From: a virus
Lineage: Duplodnaviria; Caudoviricetes
Length of the DNA stretch: 26,953 bases
Virus record (IMG/VR): IMGVR_UViG_3300012200_000014
Span: 1 to 26,953 of that record
Strand: one strand, 5' to 3'
In this document: in pieces, positions 13,077 to 23,982 of the stretch
Numbering within the stretch: the first letter of the stretch is position 1
How the letters are laid out: each line of letters begins with the position of its first letter
Notes under the pieces: generated by a model
Told to the model about the DNA's origin: nothing
Database searches by the model: none
Seen by the model: the letters and a program-made list of their open reading frames with translations, nothing else
Program-made: the position numbers and the translations under genes

Positions 13077-16000
13077 ATGGCACGCCACGAGACACTGGCG
13101 CATGCGAAGGCCCGCATGCGCAGAGAGGGCTGGTCCGAGGCAGCAATTCGGGGCCAGGCCAACCGCTGGCGCACCCAGCGTCTCGGCGTGCCCAAGCCCG
13201 TTGTCTCCCTTCCTGTCGCGACGGTGCCGCGGCCGACAGTCAAGGTCCCGAGTCCGCACGCGGACACCGGCTTCCGCGCCGTCTCCATTCCGAGGCCGAC
13301 GGGCGACCCGCACGTCCGCAGCGTGCAGCGGCGGCTGAACGCGGCCGGCTACAACGTCGACGTCGACGGCGTGCTGGGCCCGCAGACGAGAGCTGCGATC
13401 AGCCGTCACAACAAGGAACTCCCCGGCCGGCAGGCGGCGGCGAACCAGGCTTTCGCGAACACGGTGCGCACCCAGTACACCGAGCCGGTCCCGAAGGTCG
13501 ACTCGCCGCACCGGAGGAGAATCGCAGCCAGGGGTCTGCCCGTGCCTAGGAGCAGCGGTGGCTCGGCGCTCGGCAAGTACGAGCCGCACGACCCGTACGC
13601 GCTCGGGAACATCCCGGGGCTACGGCCGCGCCGTCAGTTTGCTCCCACGCCCGACCTGCGCACCCCCTTCGACAAGCAGGTCGGGAACATCGTCGGCTCG
13701 ATCATCTCCGACCCACTCGGCGCGCTCGCGTTCGGCAAGGCCGGCGTCCATTTCGTCAAGCACCCGTCGATCGGCGCCGGCACCGCCGCCGCCGCCGCCG
13801 GGCTCGGTGTCGTCCCGGTGCTGCGCGGGCCGCGGGCGGCAGCGGCGATGTTCACCGCACTGCGTGACGGAGCGGCGCTCCGCGAGGCGGCGCAGGCCGG
13901 CGCCAGATCGTTCGGCGAGCGGGGCCCGATCGCAACGGCACGCGAGACGCTGAAGCTGAAGCGGATGAAGGCCGACGTGATGCCGGTGCTAAAGAACGAC
14001 CCGGTCAGGCGGGTGATCTTCCAGGAGATCGACGCCGCCGGTCTCGAGCCTGGGCGCGCCAAGCAGCTGAAGAGCGACCTCGACGCCGCCGCCGCCGAGC
14101 ACGCTGACACGCTCGCCCGCGGGGTCAAGGGTGGGACACTCGCGAACCGGCGGGCGATCCACGCTCCCGCCTACTTCCACGACATGCACTCGACGGCGGC
14201 GAAGCTGCACGGCTCGATCCCCGACTTCATCCACCAGATCTCGAAAGAGGAAGCCGACGCGCATCTGCGGTCCTTCCTCGACCCGAAGAACATCGCCAAA
14301 GGCCACGCTCAGAACCCCGCTCGGGCCTCGACACACCCCGATCTGGGCGCGCTCGTCGCGACGGGGAGGATCACCCCAGAGCAGTGGTGGGCGCGCACCC
14401 AGCACGCCTTCAACTACAACCAGGCGGACGGCCTGAAGGCTGCCTACTGGTACCGCCAGCTCGGGCCGATCTTCTACCACTTCTTCGGCGACGACGCGCC
14501 GGCGATCCTCAGAGGCTTCGCCGTCTCGCAGGCCAACGCCTCCCCCTCCGGAGGCCTGCAGGCGGTGCTCGAGGTCAGAGACCTGCTCCTGCGCGGCCAG
14601 CCGGTCCCGGAGGACAAGATCTCGACGGTCGTCAAGTCGATCGAAGCGGCCTACCAGGGACAGCCGGTGACCGCGGGGATGGCGGCGAAGCTGCACGACT
14701 TCGCCAACAGCCTGGAAGGCAAGTCGACGAGAACCTGGACGGGCGATGACATCCGCGGCGGCGCCCCGACGGCGATCGACATCCACGCCCAGCGCGACCT
14801 GGGCCGGATCGACCCGAAGATCCTCGCCACCCTGCGCGATCGGCACGGCCTTCCCGTCGCGCACCTACAACTCGAGGCCTTGAACCGCGAGCTGAAGCGG
14901 CTGCAGGGGACCGACGTGATCGAGCTCAACAGCAGGACGAAGATCCGCAAGGGCGCCGAGGGGTTCGAGGAGGCCAAGGCGAACGTGCTGCGGAGGCAGC
15001 GGGGGCGGATTAGGTCGTTCAAAAAGGCGAACGGGGATGAGATCAAGGCCGGGCGCAAGTCGGGGCTGAAGCTCGACAACCCCGGCGCGGCAGCGAGCGG
15101 GATCAACTACGACCAGCCGCTGCGCGAGTACGCCGCGATCACCAGGTACCTGAACGACAACAAGGCCTGGGGCAAGACCTGGGGGACGAACGAGTGGACG
15201 CCGGCCGAGGTACAGGCGCTCGGCTGGTCAGGGATCCAGCGCTTCCACGGCGAGGTGCCGGAAGACGCACTGGCTGCGATCGAGCGCAACACCCACCACA
15301 TCTCGCTCGAGGTTCTGAGCGGCGCCAACGACTTCGCCAAGGCGCCCGCAAGCTACCGAGCGGCGCTAGGCCTGACCAAGCGCGAGCAGGCGAACGTGCT
15401 CCGGATCATCGGCGAGGAGAACGGGATCCTGCGCGCCGTCGACTACGGGCCGGGGATCTACCAGAACGTGTTCACGCCGTCGATGAACCTGCAGATCCTC
15501 GGCTCACCGAACCAGGTCGACAGGATTGCGGCGCGGCTCGCCCGCGAGTACCAGCAGTGGGAGGTCTGGGCGACACGGCCCGGTCTGCAGAGCAGCGTCA
15601 AGGGCAGGAAGAGCAAGTTCGCGATCGAGCTCGAGGCGCCGCAGTTCGCGAAGGTCTCGGAGATCAGGAGGTACTGGGCCGACCTGCAGGCGCACGCGAC
15701 CCCGAAGCAGCTCAAGCAGCTGACGGGGGCGACGACCTACAGCTACAAGAACGAGGCCGGCGAGACGGTCTACGGGCTGCGGATCGTCACCGGGCACGCC
15801 TCCGGGAAGGAAGAGAAGATCAAAGACTTCCTGCGCAGGAACTACGGGGAGCTGCTCGAGGGGGTCAACAAACGCAGCGGCTACCATGTCAAGGTCGATC
15901 CCAACAACGTCGAGGTCAGAATCCATGAAGGACAGCCAGCAGGAACCGCAGAAGCCGGAAGGGTCTACGACCTGGGGGGACATGAAGCCCCCGGACCACC

Positions 16001-19000
16001 CGGCGAACCGGCCGTCCATCCATATTCGGCCGAAGCCGCCGGCGCCCTCGGGCCCGCCCGCCCAGCAGTAAGCGCGGCCGTTCCGGGACTCGACGTCCCG
16101 CACCCCGGCGACGCCTTCCCGCTCCGCGACGAGTACGGCAACGTCGTCCCCTCGGCACGCTTCGTCTCCGGCGCGGAAGAACCCTTCACCTTCCCCGCCC
16201 ACTGGACGGACACCGGCGCCGGCCCGGGCCTGGGCGAGGTCTACGACGATGCCCGCAGCTGGCTCGCCGACGTCGCCTGGTCGAACATGGAGCCGGAGCA
16301 GATGCAGGCGCTGCCGGACGCGGTCGTCGCGAACGCGATCGACAAGTACTACGACGGCGGCATGGAGCAGTTCATCAGCGACTCGCTCTACGTCGATCCG
16401 CTCGCCCCCGCCGCCGAGAACATCAAGAACGTCCCGGAGGTCTTCCGGCTCGAACGGCCGCTCTACGACAACGGCTCCACCCTCGCCGACAGGCATCTGA
16501 CGGAGGAGGCGAGAGCCTGGCAGAACAAGCTGCGCGACGAGTTCGGCAACCCCGTCCCGTCGGCGCGCTTCGCCACCGGCGCCGCCGAGATCCCCCCGAC
16601 AGAGATCAACCCGGCCGTGCGGGCGGCGCTCGACGACCCCTACGTGGCGCGAGAGATGAGCATCGGCGGGCTGACCGCCCAGTTCCTGAAGCCGCGCTCC
16701 GGGCTCTCCCGCTTCGGCGTGCACTGGATCGACGAGGCCTCGAAGGCGCTCGACCGCTCGCCGCTCGTCCACTCGCTGCCCGGCGTTCGCCACGTCACCT
16801 CGTCGGAGCGGGTGATGAAGGCGGCGGGTCGCGAGCAGCGAGCTGCCCAGGAGGAGCGGCTTTCGAGGATGGCCGGCGCGATCCGCACAATCGGGAACCT
16901 GAAGGAGGGATCGGCGGAAGACGTCGCGCACTTCTGGTATGCCCAGCTACCGAAGAGCCACCGCAACGCCGAAGGCCTGCAGGCCGTCATGGATCTGCAG
17001 ACCGGCCACCTGAGGGAACTGCTCGACGGCACCATCGACGCCCGCCTCGACGCTCGCGAGACCGAACTCAAGGAGACCGCGAAGCTCGCCGAGACGAAGG
17101 GCGAGGTGATGGAGATCTACGACGAGCTCGGTCGGCTCAACCTCTACCGCCAAGACCTGCCCTTCCAGAAGGAGGATGTCAGCGCCTCGATCGCGGTCAT
17201 GAAAGATCTCGTCGCGAACGCACCCGAGGTCGACGACAAGGTGATCGGCGCGATGCGCAAGCTGGCCGAAGACCGCAAGCGGATCATGGTTGAGGGCGGC
17301 AGGCTCGAGGAGGGACGCGCCGCCGGCCGCGAAGGCCTGCTCGCCCGCCAGCTCGGGCTGGAGGAGGACGGCAGCGAGGTCTACGTCGGGCACCGGCTCG
17401 CCGAGCCCGACCCGCAGGGCGCCTATACGCCACCGTCGGGAGGGACGGGCCGGCCACGCTCGCCGAAGGGCGCCGGCAGCCGCAACCAGCTGATCCTCGC
17501 TCGCAACGGCAGGCTGCGCGCCACCACCCGCGTCAACTACGAGGACTGGAGCTCGAGCCAGGTCTTCCAGCAGGCGATCATCGACCGCACCAACCTCGGC
17601 CAGACCGGGCCGCGCTGGACGGGCGGCGCGGTCCCGGCGGACAGCCTGCTCGTGAACATGAAGGGCGAGGTGATCCCGAAGCACTGGCGCTCGGACGAGC
17701 TGGCGCAGTTCACCGACGACGCCGTCGAGCGGGAGGAGATCCGCAAGAAGGCCGACGACATCGTCAAGGGGTTCATCGCCCAGACCCATGACGAGCAGGT
17801 GGCGATGATCGCGAAGGTCAGGCAGATGTCGATCGAGGCGGGCAAGCCGGTCGGCGACATCCGGGTCGTCAAGCGCGCCCACGTCGACCGCTACTACAAG
17901 CAGTTCCGCCCGCCGGGCGCCCGCGGCGAGGCGCTGAAGACCTACGACCACATCATCGACGGGGTCTCGACCTCGATCATCTTCGCCCGCATCGGCTACA
18001 TCCCGAAGAACGCCGTCCAGAACCTGATCATGGCGGCGCCGCACCAGGGCGTCTTCCTGCCCCAGAACCTGGTGCGCGCAGCGCAGGTCCTGAACGACGC
18101 GCAGTTCAGGGACATGAAGGAGCTCAAGGATCTACTCAAGGGACAGGTCTCCTCGTCGGGGGGGACGGCCGCGATGGGCAAGGAGATGGTCGCGGGCAAG
18201 GTGCACCGGGTCGTGACGGGGACGGTGACGGCGTTCGCGGACGACCCCGGCCGGATCGCCGCCTTCCTGCACGAGGCGGCGAACGAAGGAGTGATCCCGC
18301 GCTACGGCGTCCTGCTCAGCACGAAAGACAAGCGCGCCCTGATCGACTTCCTGACGAACCCGCGCCACGAGAGGCAGCGCTTCGATGTCAGACGGCGGGC
18401 CGTCGAGGCGATGGGCGACTTCACGCGCATGACCCCCTCACAGGCCCGCTGGGCAAGGCGCTACTTCATCATCCCCGGCTGGCTCGTCGCCGGCTCCCGC
18501 TACCCGTTCCACTTCGCCGCCACCCACCCGATCCGCACGGCGCTGATCGCCTACGCGCTCGCCGGCGAACCGGGCGCGCCCAAGGAGCTGCAGTTCAACC
18601 AGCCGGTCACGCAGTACCTGCACGGCGACAAGTACATGATCGGCTTCGACACCCGCTGGGGCAGGCTGCGGGTCGCGTCGCTGAACCCGATCTCGACACC
18701 GGAGGAGTTGGCGCTCGCCGCCGCCGGGTCCTTCAGCGGAAAGAAGAACGCCTACGACTACCAGACGCCGACGATGTTCGACGTCGCGAACCCGCTCGGC
18801 GCAGCGATCCTGAAAGTGGCCCGGGGCGAGGCCAACCTGCGCACCTACAAGGGCTGGGAGAAGGCGGTGATCGCGCCGCTCGTCCCGAACTACTCGCTGA
18901 TCAGAGACCTGATCACTAAGCAAGCGCACTCGCCGCACTACCCCGATGACAACACCTGGTGGCGGCGGCTCGAGCGCGAGCTCGGGATCCTCCCGATACG

Positions 19001-19172
19001 CGTCATCGATCAGCCAGTGAGGGGTGGGACAGCAGGCCCGCTGTACGGCGGCGGCGGATCGAACCTCGCACCTGGCCTCGGCGGCGGCAGCGGCGGGGCT
19101 CCGGGGGTCGGCAGTAGCAGCGGCAGCTTCCCCGGCGGCGGCGGTGGTGGTGGCTCGGCTCCAGGGCTATGA
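13077..19172 (+). CDS. Large multidomain virion/ejection (polyvalent-type) protein, 2031 aa
   Basis: Has a PG_binding_1-like motif (VRSVQRRLNAAGYNVDVDGVLGPQTRAAI), a central HhH-glycosylase-like motif set, a helical C-terminal region and a Gly-rich tail. Confidence 0.75.
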   Translation: MARHETLAHAKARMRREGWSEAAIRGQANRWRTQRLGVPKPVVSLPVATVPRPTVKVPSPHADTGFRAVSIPRPTGDPHVRSVQRRLNAAGYNVDVDGVLGPQTRAAISRHNKELPGRQAAANQAFANTVRTQYTEPVPKVDSPHRRRIAARGLPVPRSSGGSALGKYEPHDPYALGNIPGLRPRRQFAPTPDLRTPFDKQVGNIVGSIISDPLGALAFGKAGVHFVKHPSIGAGTAAAAAGLGVVPVLRGPRAAAAMFTALRDGAALREAAQAGARSFGERGPIATARETLKLKRMKADVMPVLKNDPVRRVIFQEIDAAGLEPGRAKQLKSDLDAAAAEHADTLARGVKGGTLANRRAIHAPAYFHDMHSTAAKLHGSIPDFIHQISKEEADAHLRSFLDPKNIAKGHAQNPARASTHPDLGALVATGRITPEQWWARTQHAFNYNQADGLKAAYWYRQLGPIFYHFFGDDAPAILRGFAVSQANASPSGGLQAVLEVRDLLLRGQPVPEDKISTVVKSIEAAYQGQPVTAGMAAKLHDFANSLEGKSTRTWTGDDIRGGAPTAIDIHAQRDLGRIDPKILATLRDRHGLPVAHLQLEALNRELKRLQGTDVIELNSRTKIRKGAEGFEEAKANVLRRQRGRIRSFKKANGDEIKAGRKSGLKLDNPGAAASGINYDQPLREYAAITRYLNDNKAWGKTWGTNEWTPAEVQALGWSGIQRFHGEVPEDALAAIERNTHHISLEVLSGANDFAKAPASYRAALGLTKREQANVLRIIGEENGILRAVDYGPGIYQNVFTPSMNLQILGSPNQVDRIAARLAREYQQWEVWATRPGLQSSVKGRKSKFAIELEAPQFAKVSEIRRYWADLQAHATPKQLKQLTGATTYSYKNEAGETVYGLRIVTGHASGKEEKIKDFLRRNYGELLEGVNKRSGYHVKVDPNNVEVRIHEGQPAGTAEAGRVYDLGGHEAPGPPGEPAVHPYSAEAAGALGPARPAVSAAVPGLDVPHPGDAFPLRDEYGNVVPSARFVSGAEEPFTFPAHWTDTGAGPGLGEVYDDARSWLADVAWSNMEPEQMQALPDAVVANAIDKYYDGGMEQFISDSLYVDPLAPAAENIKNVPEVFRLERPLYDNGSTLADRHLTEEARAWQNKLRDEFGNPVPSARFATGAAEIPPTEINPAVRAALDDPYVAREMSIGGLTAQFLKPRSGLSRFGVHWIDEASKALDRSPLVHSLPGVRHVTSSERVMKAAGREQRAAQEERLSRMAGAIRTIGNLKEGSAEDVAHFWYAQLPKSHRNAEGLQAVMDLQTGHLRELLDGTIDARLDARETELKETAKLAETKGEVMEIYDELGRLNLYRQDLPFQKEDVSASIAVMKDLVANAPEVDDKVIGAMRKLAEDRKRIMVEGGRLEEGRAAGREGLLARQLGLEEDGSEVYVGHRLAEPDPQGAYTPPSGGTGRPRSPKGAGSRNQLILARNGRLRATTRVNYEDWSSSQVFQQAIIDRTNLGQTGPRWTGGAVPADSLLVNMKGEVIPKHWRSDELAQFTDDAVEREEIRKKADDIVKGFIAQTHDEQVAMIAKVRQMSIEAGKPVGDIRVVKRAHVDRYYKQFRPPGARGEALKTYDHIIDGVSTSIIFARIGYIPKNAVQNLIMAAPHQGVFLPQNLVRAAQVLNDAQFRDMKELKDLLKGQVSSSGGTAAMGKEMVAGKVHRVVTGTVTAFADDPGRIAAFLHEAANEGVIPRYGVLLSTKDKRALIDFLTNPRHERQRFDVRRRAVEAMGDFTRMTPSQARWARRYFIIPGWLVAGSRYPFHFAATHPIRTALIAYALAGEPGAPKELQFNQPVTQYLHGDKYMIGFDTRWGRLRVASLNPISTPEELALAAAGSFSGKKNAYDYQTPTMFDVANPLGAAILKVARGEANLRTYKGWEKAVIAPLVPNYSLIRDLITKQAHSPHYPDDNTWWRRLERELGILPIRVIDQPVRGGTAGPLYGGGGSNLAPGLGGGSGGAPGVGSSSGSFPGGGGGGGSAPGL
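15925..16071 (+). CDS. Candidate nested (+1 frame) 48-aa gene inside the 2031-aa gene
   Basis: GAGG at 15912-15915 precedes the ATG. By hand count 43/48 codons end in G/C in this frame versus 27/48 in the host frame. Confidence 0.5.
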   Translation: MKDSQQEPQKPEGSTTWGDMKPPDHPANRPSIHIRPKPPAPSGPPAQQ

Positions 19173-20526: not shown

Positions 20527-20773
20527 CTGGCTATGGCTGGCTATGGACCCTCTTGCCGCACCCCTGCCGGGGGCTTGCCGCCCAGTTGCTTTTGGCTTGC
20601 TTAAGCCATTCTTCTGCCCTGCAGCGCCCCAAATCGAATTTCGAGACCGCCGCAATAGACCGCTCTGCCACCCCTCCGAGTCTTGAAACTCCCTGCTAAT
20701 CGGCTTTTTTTAGCTCCTCTCTGTTTGTGACATTTGCAACAGTGGCTAGGATCTGGCTAGGAACTGGCTTGCA
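20527..20773. other. attP: attP site: tRNA-derived core with integrase arm-type repeats
   Basis: Left arm: CTGGCTATGG twice (20527-20546) and TGGCTTGC (20593). Core at 20639-20677. Right arm: TGGCTAGGA, TGGCTAGGA and TGGCTTGCA at 20743, 20754 and 20765. Adjacent to the integrase 3' end, with phage genes on both sides. Confidence 0.8.
20639..20677 (-). pseudogene. 5' half of tRNA-Ser(CGA) forming the attP core; not a complete tRNA
   Basis: The minus strand reads GGAGGGGTGGCAGAGCGGTCTATTGCGGCGGT-CTCGAAA: acceptor 5' strand, D arm, anticodon 5' stem and loop. The expected ACCG... 3' half is replaced by TTCGAT. Confidence 0.85.
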
Positions 20774-20852: not shown

Positions 20853-22094
20853 TTACCGTGCCCCGAACCTTGCCTGGCGAGCCTTGGTGGCGGTGCTCTT
20901 CTCGAGGTGCCCGTAGATCGTGCGGGCGACCTCCGGGTCGTGGCCGGCGGCTTCGCCGATCATCGCCCAGTCGACGAGCTCGCCGGCGTCGGTGTACGAC
21001 TTGATCGCCGAGGAGACGTAGGTGTGGCGGAAAAAGTGCGCGGTCACGCTGCGTCCGATTCCGGCTCCTTCGACGGCCTCCTTGATCTTTTTGGAGATGA
21101 AACTCGCCTGCCGCGGCGTCTGCTTCGACGTCGGAAAGAGCAGCCCGCCGCGGTGGAGCCAGCCGGCCTCGATTCCCGCGTCGATATATGACTGCAAAAC
21201 CTTGGCCCCGAATTCGGAGACAGAGACGGTGCGCACTTTGTCGCCGATCGTCGAGTCCTCACCCTTCAGCGCCTTGAACCAGGTCCTGTCGTCGCTGACG
21301 TCGCGCTTGCGCCGCAGCTGGCGCTCGACACGCAGCTCGCCGTAGAAGCCGACGTGCTCGTCGCCGTGCGGGCGCACCATCGGGTTCCAATCCTTCAGCT
21401 GCAGCGCGAGCATCTCGGACAGCCTCAGCCCGAGCAGCGGCAGCAGCAGCACGATCACCCGCATCTGCGCACCGACGATGTCGCCGTTGATGTTGTCGCG
21501 GCTGAGCACGGCGGCGACGTCCGCGATCCGGTCGACCTCAGCCATGTCGACGACCAGCCCCTGCTCCGACTGGCTGCGCTTCTTCCGCTGCGGGATGTTG
21601 ATCTCCGAGATCCCCTGGACGGGGTTCGTGGTGCAGTAGCTCTGCTCCCCTTGCGTGCACCATTTGAAGAAGGCGAGCATCGCGCTGTAGACGTTGGCGC
21701 AGCTGTTCTCCGTCAGCCCCCGTCGCTTCGCGTTCTTCAGCACCTGGGTGATCTGACGCGGCTGCACCTTGTCGACGCGGAGGTGCCCGATCGCCGGCAG
21801 CACGTCCATGCGGAAGCAGCTGGCGTGGCGGTCAATCGTGTCGACGCCGGCGCGGTGCTCGGCGCCCTTGAACTCCTCCCATGCCTTGCGCACGGTGATC
21901 TTCGAGTCGGCGGCGAGCGGCTGGCCATAGTCCTCGTGGTAGAGCCGCTGTGCTTCGCCGAGCTCGGTCGTCCCGAACGAGCGCTTGACCGGCCGCTCGT
22001 CGCGCCAGCCGTAGAAGTACCAGACGCCGCTGTCGATGCGCTGCCGCAGACCAGGGAAACCCTGTGGGTCTACAGCGGGATGAAACTCTGCCAT
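20853..22094 (-). CDS. int: Tyrosine integrase (413 aa)
   Basis: AAGGAGG RBS before ATG 22094. Catalytic set LGLRLSE (R), ALKG (K), HFFRHTY (HxxR), AAGH and IYGH (Y). Also has an arm-binding-like N-terminus and a SAM-like core-binding region. Confidence 0.93.
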   Translation of the reverse strand: MAEFHPAVDPQGFPGLRQRIDSGVWYFYGWRDERPVKRSFGTTELGEAQRLYHEDYGQPLAADSKITVRKAWEEFKGAEHRAGVDTIDRHASCFRMDVLPAIGHLRVDKVQPRQITQVLKNAKRRGLTENSCANVYSAMLAFFKWCTQGEQSYCTTNPVQGISEINIPQRKKRSQSEQGLVVDMAEVDRIADVAAVLSRDNINGDIVGAQMRVIVLLLPLLGLRLSEMLALQLKDWNPMVRPHGDEHVGFYGELRVERQLRRKRDVSDDRTWFKALKGEDSTIGDKVRTVSVSEFGAKVLQSYIDAGIEAGWLHRGGLLFPTSKQTPRQASFISKKIKEAVEGAGIGRSVTAHFFRHTYVSSAIKSYTDAGELVDWAMIGEAAGHDPEVARTIYGHLEKSTATKARQARFGAR

Positions 22095-22188
22095 GCTGAC
22101 CGTCCTCCTTGCAGTGAGATGCACTGGTTGTGCATAGCCAGTCTAGCCACCTCGCTCTGACCCATTCGGGTGGTTCTGCTCGATATGA

Positions 22189-22214
22189 GGGAGCCGGGCC
22201 GAGACCCGGCTCCC
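22189..22214 (-). terminator. Perfect 10-bp hairpin at the 3' end of the array
   Basis: GGGAGCCGGG-6 nt-CCCGGCTCCC. It has no U-tract, so it may be a processing or stabilising stem. Confidence 0.5.
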
Positions 22215-22424
22215 CGTCGTTCCCAGCCTTCCAGCCTGCTCCCCTCTGGCCCATCCAACCGCTTCTTCCACCCAGTTCGCCAGCCTGCTCCCCTCGGCGC
22301 CACCCAGCTCGCCTACCACGCGTCCTGCCGGCCGACCACTCCCCCAGCCACGCAATCCAGCAACCACCCTCGCACCCGCCAACCCATCCTCCAGACCTCC
22401 CACCTCTCCTACTCACCCCGAGAT

Positions 22425-22475
22425 CGATGTCTCTGGGCGGCTCGACCTTTCGACTCGAGCCACCCGCAGACATCG
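22425..22475 (-). repeat. Array hairpin repeat 2
   Basis: CGATGTCTGCGGGTGGCTCGA...TCGAGCCGCCCAGAGACATCG; homologous to 22580-22632. Confidence 0.85.
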
Positions 22476-22579
22476 CCAACCAGCCTCCAACCCGCTCACC
22501 CATCCTCCAGACCTCCTACCTCGCCTAGCCTGCGTCCTCCCGACTTCCCATCCCACAATCCAGCTCGCCTTCCTCCAGT

Positions 22580-22632
22580 CAACGTCTCTGGGCAGCTCAG
22601 CCCATCTCGGACTGAGCCACCCACAAACGTCG
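22580..22632 (-). repeat. Array hairpin repeat 1
   Basis: CGACGTTTGTGGGTGGCTCAGTCC-GAGAT-GGGCTGAGCTGCCCAGAGACGTTG; several mismatches resolve as G-U pairs only on the minus strand. Confidence 0.85.
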
Positions 22633-22768
22633 AACTCCTTCCGTCCTGTTGTCCATCCAGATCGCCGCTCAGCCGTCCTCCTGTCCGACCACCGGCCCAG
22701 CCAGCCTCCCGCCCCGCCGTGCTCCCTTGCTCCCGGCCTGGCCTCACTGCAGCCCTACCATCTTCCCT

Positions 22769-23416
22769 TTATGTCCATGCGATCTCGTGCGGCTCGGAGA
22801 CTTCGACGACGACAAAGCGGCCCATCCCGATCCGGACGGCGTCGCCGATGCCGCGCTGCCCGGCGCGGTTCACGAGCATGACGGCGTCGGCCGGCGAGAA
22901 GACCTCGGGCCAGATGCAGAGCAGCGTGAAGCTGGTCGTCCAGCCGGCGTGCAGAATCGGCCGGCGGACCGGGCCCATCTTGGTGCCGAGCCGGCCGAGG
23001 CGTTCGTCGATCACGTCCCACTCAAGCACCGGCTCAGAGCCGTTGCCGTTGCGCGTCGTGAAGGAGCAGAACTCCTCCTTGACGCTGAACGCAGTCGGGA
23101 TGATCGGGCGCATCGACTTCGCCCCCGACTTGGTCGGGTCGGGCAGGCCGCGGGCCATCTCGGCAATCGCCTTGATGAACTGCGCGCCGTCGACCGCGAG
23201 CGCTCCGTCCTGCCGCCAGACCTTGTCCTCGTAGTTCGGCGTCTGCAGTCTCTTGACGCCGGCCTTGCGACGTTCGTCGGCGGCGACGTAGGCATCGACA
23301 TTCGGGGCGTTGAAGAAGAAGGCGCGCACGCCGCGGACCGTGAAGCCGATTCCGAACGGTGTGATGGCGTCGTCTCCGAAGACACGGAGCTCGTCCTTTT
23401 TCTTGGTTGTTGGCAC
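22769..23416 (-). CDS. Stand-alone RAMP/Cas7-like RNA-binding protein (Vipr-like), 215 aa
   Basis: GGGAGG RBS before GTG 23416. RAMP-like motif order: FTVRGVRAFFFN, LAVDGAQFIKAIAEMAR, VRRPILHAGWTTSFTL and the C-terminal Gly-rich loop GIGDAVRIGMGRFVV. No other cas genes in the window. Confidence 0.75.
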   Translation of the reverse strand: MPTTKKKDELRVFGDDAITPFGIGFTVRGVRAFFFNAPNVDAYVAADERRKAGVKRLQTPNYEDKVWRQDGALAVDGAQFIKAIAEMARGLPDPTKSGAKSMRPIIPTAFSVKEEFCSFTTRNGNGSEPVLEWDVIDERLGRLGTKMGPVRRPILHAGWTTSFTLLCIWPEVFSPADAVMLVNRAGQRGIGDAVRIGMGRFVVVEVSEPHEIAWT

Positions 23417-23612
23417 TTGACCGTCCTCCCTTGTTTTTGGGTGTGTCTGACTCTTCCCTTGATAGGTGACCGGCCCAGCGAGCGCGACGGCGACGCCGGG
23501 GTGCTCTCTCGGCCACATGTCTGAGGTTCCCAGCCTTCCCACTGCTTGCGCTCGCCGTCCCCCACTCGGCTCGGGGGCTCGAGGTGCGCGGTGCTGCCCA
23601 GCCTGGATAGAT

Positions 23613-23667
23613 AAAAAAACGGGGCTGGCGCGGTCCGCTGTCGGCCTGCGAGTCCTGAGCCCCACCG
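23613..23667 (-). terminator. Probable intrinsic terminator between the early genes and the RAMP-like gene
   Basis: Minus strand GGGGCT...CGCAGGCCG-ACAG-CGGACCGCG..AGCCCCG followed by T7. Confidence 0.55.
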
Positions 23668-23751
23668 CTGCCGGTACCACCTATGCTTACGGTGCCCCCG
23701 AACGGTCGAGACTGGTGCTCAGCTCTCATGTGGCATGTATCGGGGGCTTCT

Positions 23752-23982
23752 CTATTGCATCGCCTCCTTGCGCATCGGCGCGAGCTTCTCGCGGCGCCAG
23801 CGCAGGGCAAAGCGGCGCGGGTCCTCGCCGCGTTCGAGCGCGAGCTCGTGCAGCGCCGTATTCAGCAGTGCTTCTTCGCGCTCGAGCGTGGCCCGGAGCG
23901 CGACGATCCCGCGCTTCAGCTTCGCGTGCTCGTGCGCGAGCTGCTGCAGTTCTTCCAGCCGAAAGGTGTGCAGACGTTTCAC
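23752..23982 (-). CDS. Hypothetical coiled-coil protein (76 aa)
   Basis: GTGA overlap with the upstream gene; high GC3. Confidence 0.65.
   Translation of the reverse strand: MKRLHTFRLEELQQLAHEHAKLKRGIVALRATLEREEALLNTALHELALERGEDPRRFALRWRREKLAPMRKEAMQ

What the first reader, a model, noticed from the sequence alone, without database searches (positions are those of the whole stretch)
22635..22738. Tract 1 independently decodes to a second HTH-like motif
Seen: 26 slip-free units. Units 7-21 (22714-22655) give GC GA CT CT GC GT TC AC GA AC CT GC CG CT AT, which decodes to A-[ED]-L-L-A-V-S-T-[DE]-T-L-A-R-L-[IM]. This resembles the HTH pattern AELLGVSxxTLxRL, although the nucleotide sequence differs from tract 3. 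Inference: separate guides converge on one class of small DNA-binding regulator genes.
Basis: partly seen in the sequence, partly recalled or inferred. Interest (0 to 1): 0.8.

Follow-up and report, generated by a model that had tools for sequence, protein, structure and literature searches.

The report
Four-base VIPR-like phage guide array
A soil phage carries a CRISPR-ancestor-like protein gene followed by likely guide RNAs built from four-base repeats instead of the five-base repeats of all described VIPR systems, and this guide likely aims at a small DNA-binding gene of a rival virus, although no such target gene was found.

Summary
The 26 units are real: 19 of 26 start with GG at period 4, and 0 of 10,000 shuffles reach that. 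Tract 1 is the first of three hairpin-capped GG/NN tracts directly behind a 215-aa RAMP-fold gene related to Vipr (profile match to a SUSP1-family Vipr, probability 98.3). Published VIPR guides use five-base units. Here, and in 5 of 5 related loci with downstream DNA, the unit is four bases; of 80 sister-clade loci, 67 use five and none four. The G-loop residues that hold the missing pyrimidine in SUSP1 Vipr are changed or deleted in this clade. Read as codon positions 1-2, tract 1 matches an independently built excisionase-type HTH profile (20 of 50,000 shuffles), in the same register as tract 3 (0 of 50,000). The signal persists where the two tracts differ (p about 0.003). No target gene was found: the best natural match is 12 of 26 units, and relatives' guides do not decode to HTH. 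The main novelty is the four-base code.

The parts
22635..22738 (-). Tract 1: 26 GG/NN four-base units, predicted guide 1; units 7-23 decode to an HTH-like stretch
22578..22634 (-). Hairpin tail 1 (predicted 3' cap of guide 1)
   Evidence: -43.9 kcal/mol, z -8.0, 0 of 200 shuffles; similar to tail 2
22474..22577 (-). Tract 2: 26 units, 15 GG; no HTH signal; target unknown
22420..22473 (-). Hairpin tail 2
   Evidence: -37.6 kcal/mol, z -5.0
22350..22409 (-). Tract 3a: near-duplicate of the 3' half of tract 2
   Evidence: 18 of 18 variable bases over 9 units, scaffolds differ
22262..22349 (-). Tract 3b: 22 units decoding to a canonical excisionase-type HTH
   Evidence: 32.6 bits, 0 of 50,000 shuffles; 5 of 8 exact 8-unit matches lie in Pfam HTH domains
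22221..22260 (-). Tract 3c: 10 units after a one-base slip; resembles the end of tract 3b
   Evidence: 12 of 18 variable bases over 9 units, chance level; HTH score at chance
22188..22215 (-). Hairpin tail 3
   Evidence: z -3.0
22769..23416 (-). Vipr-family RAMP protein, 215 aa, with altered G-loop
   Evidence: model pLDDT 74.8; Cas7/Csm3/Cmr hits; hhalign to Moogle Vipr 98.3
23417..23750 (-). Upstream non-coding stretch, similar by eye in L001 and L006
   Evidence: no Rfam match
23752..23982 (-). 76-aa ORF upstream of vipr; candidate accessory gene
   Evidence: homolog in the same place in L001, 17 of 34 identical, E 1e-5; no Pfam or PHROG family
20853..22094 (-). Tyrosine integrase directly downstream of the array (context)
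   Evidence: PF00589, phrog_1

Best explanation
Tract 1 is likely a guide RNA of a phage VIPR-like system whose repeat unit is four bases (GG/NN) rather than five, and it is predicted to direct the neighbouring RAMP-fold protein to a small helix-turn-helix gene of a competing phage or other mobile element. Shown: the four-base period, the hairpin caps, the adjacent Vipr-family gene, the same layout in five relatives, and loss of the pyrimidine-pocket residues. Inferred from VIPR: each protomer would bind one unit, tuck away GG and expose NN; the NN pairs would read double-stranded DNA two bases in three, skipping the wobble base; the bound filament would silence transcription of an excisionase- or repressor-type gene and so block a rival's excision or lytic switch. 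My odds: guide of a four-base VIPR-like system 0.9; one-base skip 0.85; tract 1 aimed at an HTH gene 0.7-0.75.
For: Period 4 in the window and in L001, L004, L005, L006, L007 (GG autocorrelation at lags 4+8+12: 0, 0, 0, 1, 3 of 1,000 shuffles; no lag-5 signal; three five-base controls show the reverse). RAMP fold. Sequence link to five-base VIPRs: L079, 67 of 80 sister loci, Moogle Vipr. Aligned to SUSP1 numbering, D177, R138 and K82 are kept (D192, R152, R89), while the Y3-pocket positions are not: a gap opposite C173, V194 for R179, A78/Q79 for E71/M72 (residue roles). R two residues after the G-loop D occurs in 66 of 67 five-base loci and 0 of 19 close homologs. NN composition fits sense codon positions 1-2 best (+18 bits, 96 window units; +7 bits, 328 relative units; the other five readings negative). 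HTH scores: tract 1, 20 of 50,000; tract 3b, 0 of 50,000; 1 of 272 tests on canonical guides reaches 19.3 bits. Natural HTH genes carry the same alanine-turn motif in register (L047 HTH_17, L039 DeoR). Known VIPRs target lysis-lysogeny regulators and an excision recombinase.
Against: No target was found for any tract; the best natural match to tract 1 is 12 of 26 units. Most short-pattern hits are not HTH: 2 of 13 scanned GTDB hits and 0 of 8 scanned viral hits had a Pfam HTH, although the 9-unit pattern was chosen with HTH positions in mind. Units 5, 6, 18, 24 and 26 of tract 1 score badly against the profile. The HTH family was chosen after looking; over the 66 tract tests the corrected p is about 0.03. 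The profile rests on 23 sequences. Scaffolds are degenerate (GG in 163 of 328 relative units), and a simple 14-unit count left L004 and L006 uncalled (8 at period 4, 9 at period 5). W178, which stacks on G2 in SUSP1, and H17 are also changed (A193, N36). Tracts are longer than the published 9-16 units. The skip rule rests on codon likeness only.
Confidence: 0.68

Rival explanations
1. Tracts 1 and 3b descend from one duplicated anti-HTH guide that was later retuned, so this is divergence rather than independent convergence; this is compatible with the main mechanism.
For: The array holds clear duplicates (tract 2 and 3a). Tracts 1 and 3b share 18 of 28 variable bases in register and have non-GG scaffolds at three shared positions.
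Against: Their best 9-unit likeness (13 of 18) equals that of unrelated pairs from different loci. Tract 1's differing positions fit the HTH profile better than neutral drift from tract 3 (331 of 100,000). The non-GG scaffold letters differ.
Confidence: 0.25
2. Tract 1 is a real guide, but its HTH likeness is chance and it targets some other gene.
For: No HTH target found. The motif also occurs in RuvA and other proteins. The family was picked after the fact, and 4 of 272 canonical-guide tests also reach 2 or fewer of 2,000 shuffles.
Against: p 4e-4 in the register that tract 3b nominates independently; reversed-profile and antisense controls are at chance; 0 of 910 real coding windows score as high.
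Confidence: 0.2
3. The protein reads the array with another geometry, for example an eight-base double unit per step, or pairs with RNA rather than DNA.
For: Autocorrelation at lag 8 exceeds lag 4 in the window (0.24 against 0.16) and in L005 (0.31 against 0.05). G2-contact residue W178 is lost. The closest solved folds include RNA-targeting Csm3 and type VII Cas7.
Against: Every successive NN contributes to the 21-codon HTH match of tract 3b. The non-target-strand clamp K82 is kept as invariant R89. Sister proteins are canonical VIPRs.
Confidence: 0.1
4. The tracts are decaying G-rich repeats with no guide function.
For: Many non-GG scaffolds and slips; no targets found.
Against: The layout recurs in five diverged loci with different NN content; strong hairpin caps; protein well conserved; tract 3b carries a strong protein-family signal.
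Confidence: 0.05

Closest known systems
VIPR systems (Vipr + vrRNA; SUSP1 type II; bioRxiv 10.64898/2026.04.26.720920 and .720927)
   Same: Phage-borne small RAMP gene, downstream array of GG-scaffold/NN tracts each ending in a structured tail, NN content that reads as codon positions 1-2, conserved G-loop D and thumb R.
   Different: Unit of four bases with no pyrimidine; Y3-pocket residues changed or deleted; tracts of 22-26 units or more; long simple hairpin tails; more degenerate scaffold; no recognisable vap.
Non-canonical VIPR arrays (NNNGG, YNNNG, NNNNG; GAC/NN, CAC/NN, WGT/NN, TGH/NN; bioRxiv .720920 and 10.64898/2026.10.21.760802)
   Same: Vipr-like protein with a changed scaffold.
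   Different: All described variants keep period 5; this one changes the period.
Five-base sister clade found here (L079, L087-L166)
   Same: Nearest sequence relatives (representatives about 25-35% identical), phage-borne, GG scaffold.
   Different: GGY/NN units in 67 of 80 loci, D-x-R G-loop in 66 of 67.
Class 1 CRISPR backbone RAMPs (Csm3, Cmr, type VII Cas7)
   Same: RRM fold with thumb and G-loop (Z 8-9, rmsd about 4 A).
   Different: No cas operon or repeat-spacer array in the window; CRISPR guides pair contiguously with every sixth base flipped.

Membership tests
VIPR | Stand-alone RAMP-fold Vipr protein with thumb and G-loop | tested here: met
   hhalign probability 98.3, E 1.7e-14 of alignment A2 to Moogle Vipr
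VIPR | Minimal, mostly viral locus without cas genes | tested here: met
   head, lysis and integrase genes among 21 ORFs scanned, no cas family; virus record
VIPR | Pentanucleotide repeat, GGY/NN or a published five-base variant | tested here: not met
   period 4, no lag-5 signal in window and 5 relatives
VIPR | 9-16 repeats per guide | tested here: not met
   26, 26 and about 47 units between tails at DNA level; processed RNA lengths unknown
VIPR | Structured 3' tail after each tract | tested here: met
   three hairpins, z -8.0, -5.0, -3.0; hairpins between tracts in relatives seen by eye
VIPR | One-base skip rule, skip on the wobble position | tested here: inconclusive
   indirect support from HTH decoding and codon composition; no natural target to test skips 0-3
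VIPR | Natural targets in competing mobile elements | tested here: inconclusive
   no near-perfect match
VIPR | Accessory vap gene | tested here: inconclusive
   76-aa ORF shared with L001, no family assignment
VIPR | Small RNAs expressed and bound by Vipr; transcriptional silencing | not testable with these tools
   needs bench work
Class 1 CRISPR-Cas | Repeat-spacer array and multi-gene cas operon | tested here: not met
   no such array among tandem repeats; no cas family in scanned ORFs; the record is 58% complete
Excisionase-type HTH (PF12728) as target class of tract 1 | Decoded units fit the family profile better than shuffles | tested here: met
   20 of 50,000
Excisionase-type HTH (PF12728) as target class of tract 1 | A real gene of the family matches the gapped pattern | tested here: inconclusive
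   best 12 of 26 units in L047; collections may lack the target

The most novel reading that the evidence does not exclude
A distinct clade of phage Vipr proteins has evolved a four-base guide code (GG/NN, four RNA bases per three DNA bases) by remodelling the G-loop pocket for the pyrimidine. Guide period would thus be set by a few G-loop residues, and this phage uses two such guides against rival excisionase-type HTH genes.
Probability: 0.6. Interest if true: 0.85.

Novelty: new variant of a known kind. Interest (0 to 1): 0.76.

Why it matters
The VIPR code is described as strictly pentanucleotide, with five RNA bases per three DNA bases built into the filament geometry. A natural four-base version, matched by loss of the pocket for the missing base, would show that the period of a RAMP-guide filament can change. 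It gives a direct test of what sets that period, a question that bears on how RAMP filaments moved between VIPR (5) and CRISPR (6). It would also give 20% shorter guides per base pair recognised. Searches for five-base repeats would miss this clade.

Tried and rejected
Target searches, all without a near-perfect match. Tract 1: window, up to 3 mismatches; viral contigs, 12 units exact; metagenome and genome collections, 15 units exact; 0 of 401 genomes of the class of G006 at up to 3 mismatches. Tract 3b: viral, 11 units; 0 of 401 genomes of the order of G115, 13 units, up to 3 mismatches. Tract 2: viral, 9 units. Self-targeting with skips 0-3 in the window, six related loci and the sister phage G001: chance-level only, apart from each array matching itself; the window is a 58%-complete linear record, so the missing part is untested. 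No HTH_17 gene in the window. Antisense and reversed-profile readings are at chance. No Pfam, PHROG or Rfam family for the protein or array; no match of the protein in annotated phages; no close homolog in the genomes sampled (one distant five-base VIPR; 0 of 401). No RNA holder listed. No promoter- or terminator-like site. The idea that the scaffold encodes the skipped base was dropped because it would put a stop codon inside the tract-3b reading (by eye). Tract 2 looked like an excisionase wing by eye but scored at chance. Three relative tracts were entered off-phase and corrected. The tree is the quick search only.

Full report
OBSERVATION. The finding lies in a C-rich intergenic stretch between a 215-aa ORF (23416-22769, minus strand) and a tyrosine integrase (22094-20853). 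The record is a 26,953-base linear virus contig, 58% complete, with head, lysis and integrase genes. GG opens 19 of 26 units; 0 of 10,000 dinucleotide-preserving shuffles reach this (maximum 15). The array is identical over 619 bases in a second assembly and shows no variants in four soil runs, so it is not an assembly artefact.

ANATOMY. Three tracts follow the gene, each closed by a strong hairpin (z -8.0, -5.0, -3.0): tract 1 (26 units), tract 2 (26 units) and a composite tract 3. Tract 3a repeats the 3' half of tract 2 (18 of 18 variable bases over 9 units). Tract 3b has 22 units, and 3c has 10 after a one-base slip. The protein has no Pfam or PHROG match. Its model (pLDDT 74.8) matches Cas7-group RAMPs (Foldseek E 1.5e-5; Z 9.3, rmsd 4.1 over 152 residues) and three viral RAMP-like models.

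RELATIVES. Nineteen homologs at 58-84% identity were found and 63 representatives in a wider search. All five show GG autocorrelation at lags 4, 8 and 12 (0-3 of 1,000 shuffles) and none at 5, 10 and 15; three controls show the reverse. A cruder 14-unit count called three of the five as period 4 and left L004 and L006 uncalled. The more distant homologs are canonical VIPRs: of the best 80 of 124 viral loci, 67 have period-5 tracts, 13 no call and 0 period 4; the third base is a pyrimidine in 2,664 of 2,875 GG units. A distant hit in a bacterial genome, L079, also has five-base repeats. A quick tree keeps the 19 close proteins together (SH-aLRT 98; careful search unfinished).

A MATCHING CHANGE IN THE PROTEIN. 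The Vipr of phage Moogle has the residue numbers that the structure paper cites for SUSP1 (H17, K33, R39, E71, M72, K82, R138, C173, D177, W178, R179; T175 is V). Alignment A2, which includes the window protein, matches it with probability 98.3. The G1 reader D177, the thumb R138 and the non-target clamp K82 align to D192, R152 and R89. The pocket for the pyrimidine Y3 is not kept: there is a gap opposite C173, valine for R179, and A78/Q79 for E71/M72. Arginine two places after the G-loop aspartate is present in 66 of 67 five-base loci and 0 of 19 close homologs. W178 and H17 are also changed, which may relate to the looser scaffold (GG in 163, AG in 61, GC in 44 of 328 relative units). That these changes cause the period change is inference.

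THE HTH CLAIM. I built a profile from 23 natural HTH_17 sequences that were not picked by any tract pattern, converted it to codon positions 1-2, and scored tracts against unit shuffles. Tract 1 scores 19.3 bits (20 of 50,000) and tract 3b 32.6 bits (0 of 50,000), in the same register; antisense, reversed-profile, tract 2 and tract 3c readings are at chance; 0 of 910 real coding windows reach 19.3. Among 272 tests on 136 canonical guides, 1 reaches 19.3 bits. Over my 66 tract tests the corrected p for tract 1 is about 0.03, and the family was chosen after looking, though tract 3b nominates it independently. At the 11 positions where tract 1 differs from tract 3, the score is +6.0 against null means of -9.4 and -10.2 (320 and 331 of 100,000). 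So tract 1 is not simply a decayed copy, but shared ancestry with retuning remains possible. Natural HTH genes with the same alanine-turn motif exist (L047, L039), yet they match only 12 and 11 of 26 units, and most short-pattern hits are other proteins: 2 of 13 and 0 of 8 scanned had a Pfam HTH, against 5 of 8 for tract 3b. None of 18 tract segments from relatives decodes to this family. No target was found for any tract (see Tried and rejected).

MECHANISM. By analogy with VIPR, the array is likely transcribed and cut into tract-plus-hairpin RNAs; protomers would coat each RNA, one per unit, bury GG and present NN; the NN would pair with DNA two bases in three and silence the bound gene. A 21-unit fit to a protein family can arise only if successive NN are successive codon starts, which is the indirect evidence for the one-base skip; NN composition agrees. 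Excisionase- or repressor-type HTH genes are plausible targets: P. fulva-clade guides concentrate on lysis-lysogeny regulators and a SUSP1 guide hits a satellite's excision recombinase. Related phages carry such genes: G001 has two HTH_17 genes, and L007 has a small HTH-like ORF right after its array (Pfam E 0.15 only). Expression, binding, silencing and targets are untested.

COMPARISON AND NOVELTY. It works like VIPR and the protein belongs to the Vipr family, but the defining five-base unit was tested and not met, so I file it as a variant. What I read.720920, parts 1-3 and 6 of 6, term searches, and a term search of its supplementary PDF.720927, parts 1-2 of 6 and a term search; 2026.10.15.759431, abstract, section 6 and a term search; 2026.10.21.760802, passages only. 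All repeats named there are five-base, and 'tetranucleotide' has 0 hits in each. Four library searches listed no other VIPR paper; subscription journals, figures and the data tables were not visible, so a member of this clade may sit unremarked in them. This scan's notes hold nothing for this genome or protein, and one five-base VIPR elsewhere.

VERDICT. Observation confirmed; interpretation partly supported; new variant of a known kind; interest 0.76, mostly for the four-base code and the matching G-loop change.

Noticed in passing
window 20640-20677: Reads by eye as the reverse complement of the 5' half of a tRNA-Ser gene, next to the integrase and short repeats: a likely attP core. It matches 21 of 151 genomes of the class holding Solirubrobacterales with 2 mismatches; other classes were barely tested, so the host hint is weak.
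   Followed up: partly
window 23417-23750 (-); L001 5610-5945; L006 6900-7260: A non-coding stretch of about 330 bases upstream of vipr looks conserved in three loci, has no Rfam match, and shares a 14-base word with the end of tract 3c.
   Followed up: partly
window 22350-22413 and 22474-22529: Tract 3a duplicates part of tract 2; scaffolds differ at several units while NN are kept, and one flanking NN change (CG to AG) can be read as synonymous arginine.
   Followed up: partly
window array and L005 2049-2460: GG autocorrelation is stronger at lag 8 than at lag 4, hinting at alternating strict and loose units.
   Followed up: no
P0031-P0040: Intermediate homologs differ in the G-loop: P0036 and P0040 keep the longer loop and the arginine, while P0031, P0032, P0034, P0035 and P0038 have the short loop; their DNA was not fetched.
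   Followed up: no
L079 and L087-L166: Many canonical five-base VIPR loci; L113, L131 and L127 hold guides that also score against the HTH profile (0-1 of 2,000 shuffles).
   Followed up: no
window 13077-19172: A 2,031-aa ORF with only a short peptidoglycan-binding match near its start.
   Followed up: no
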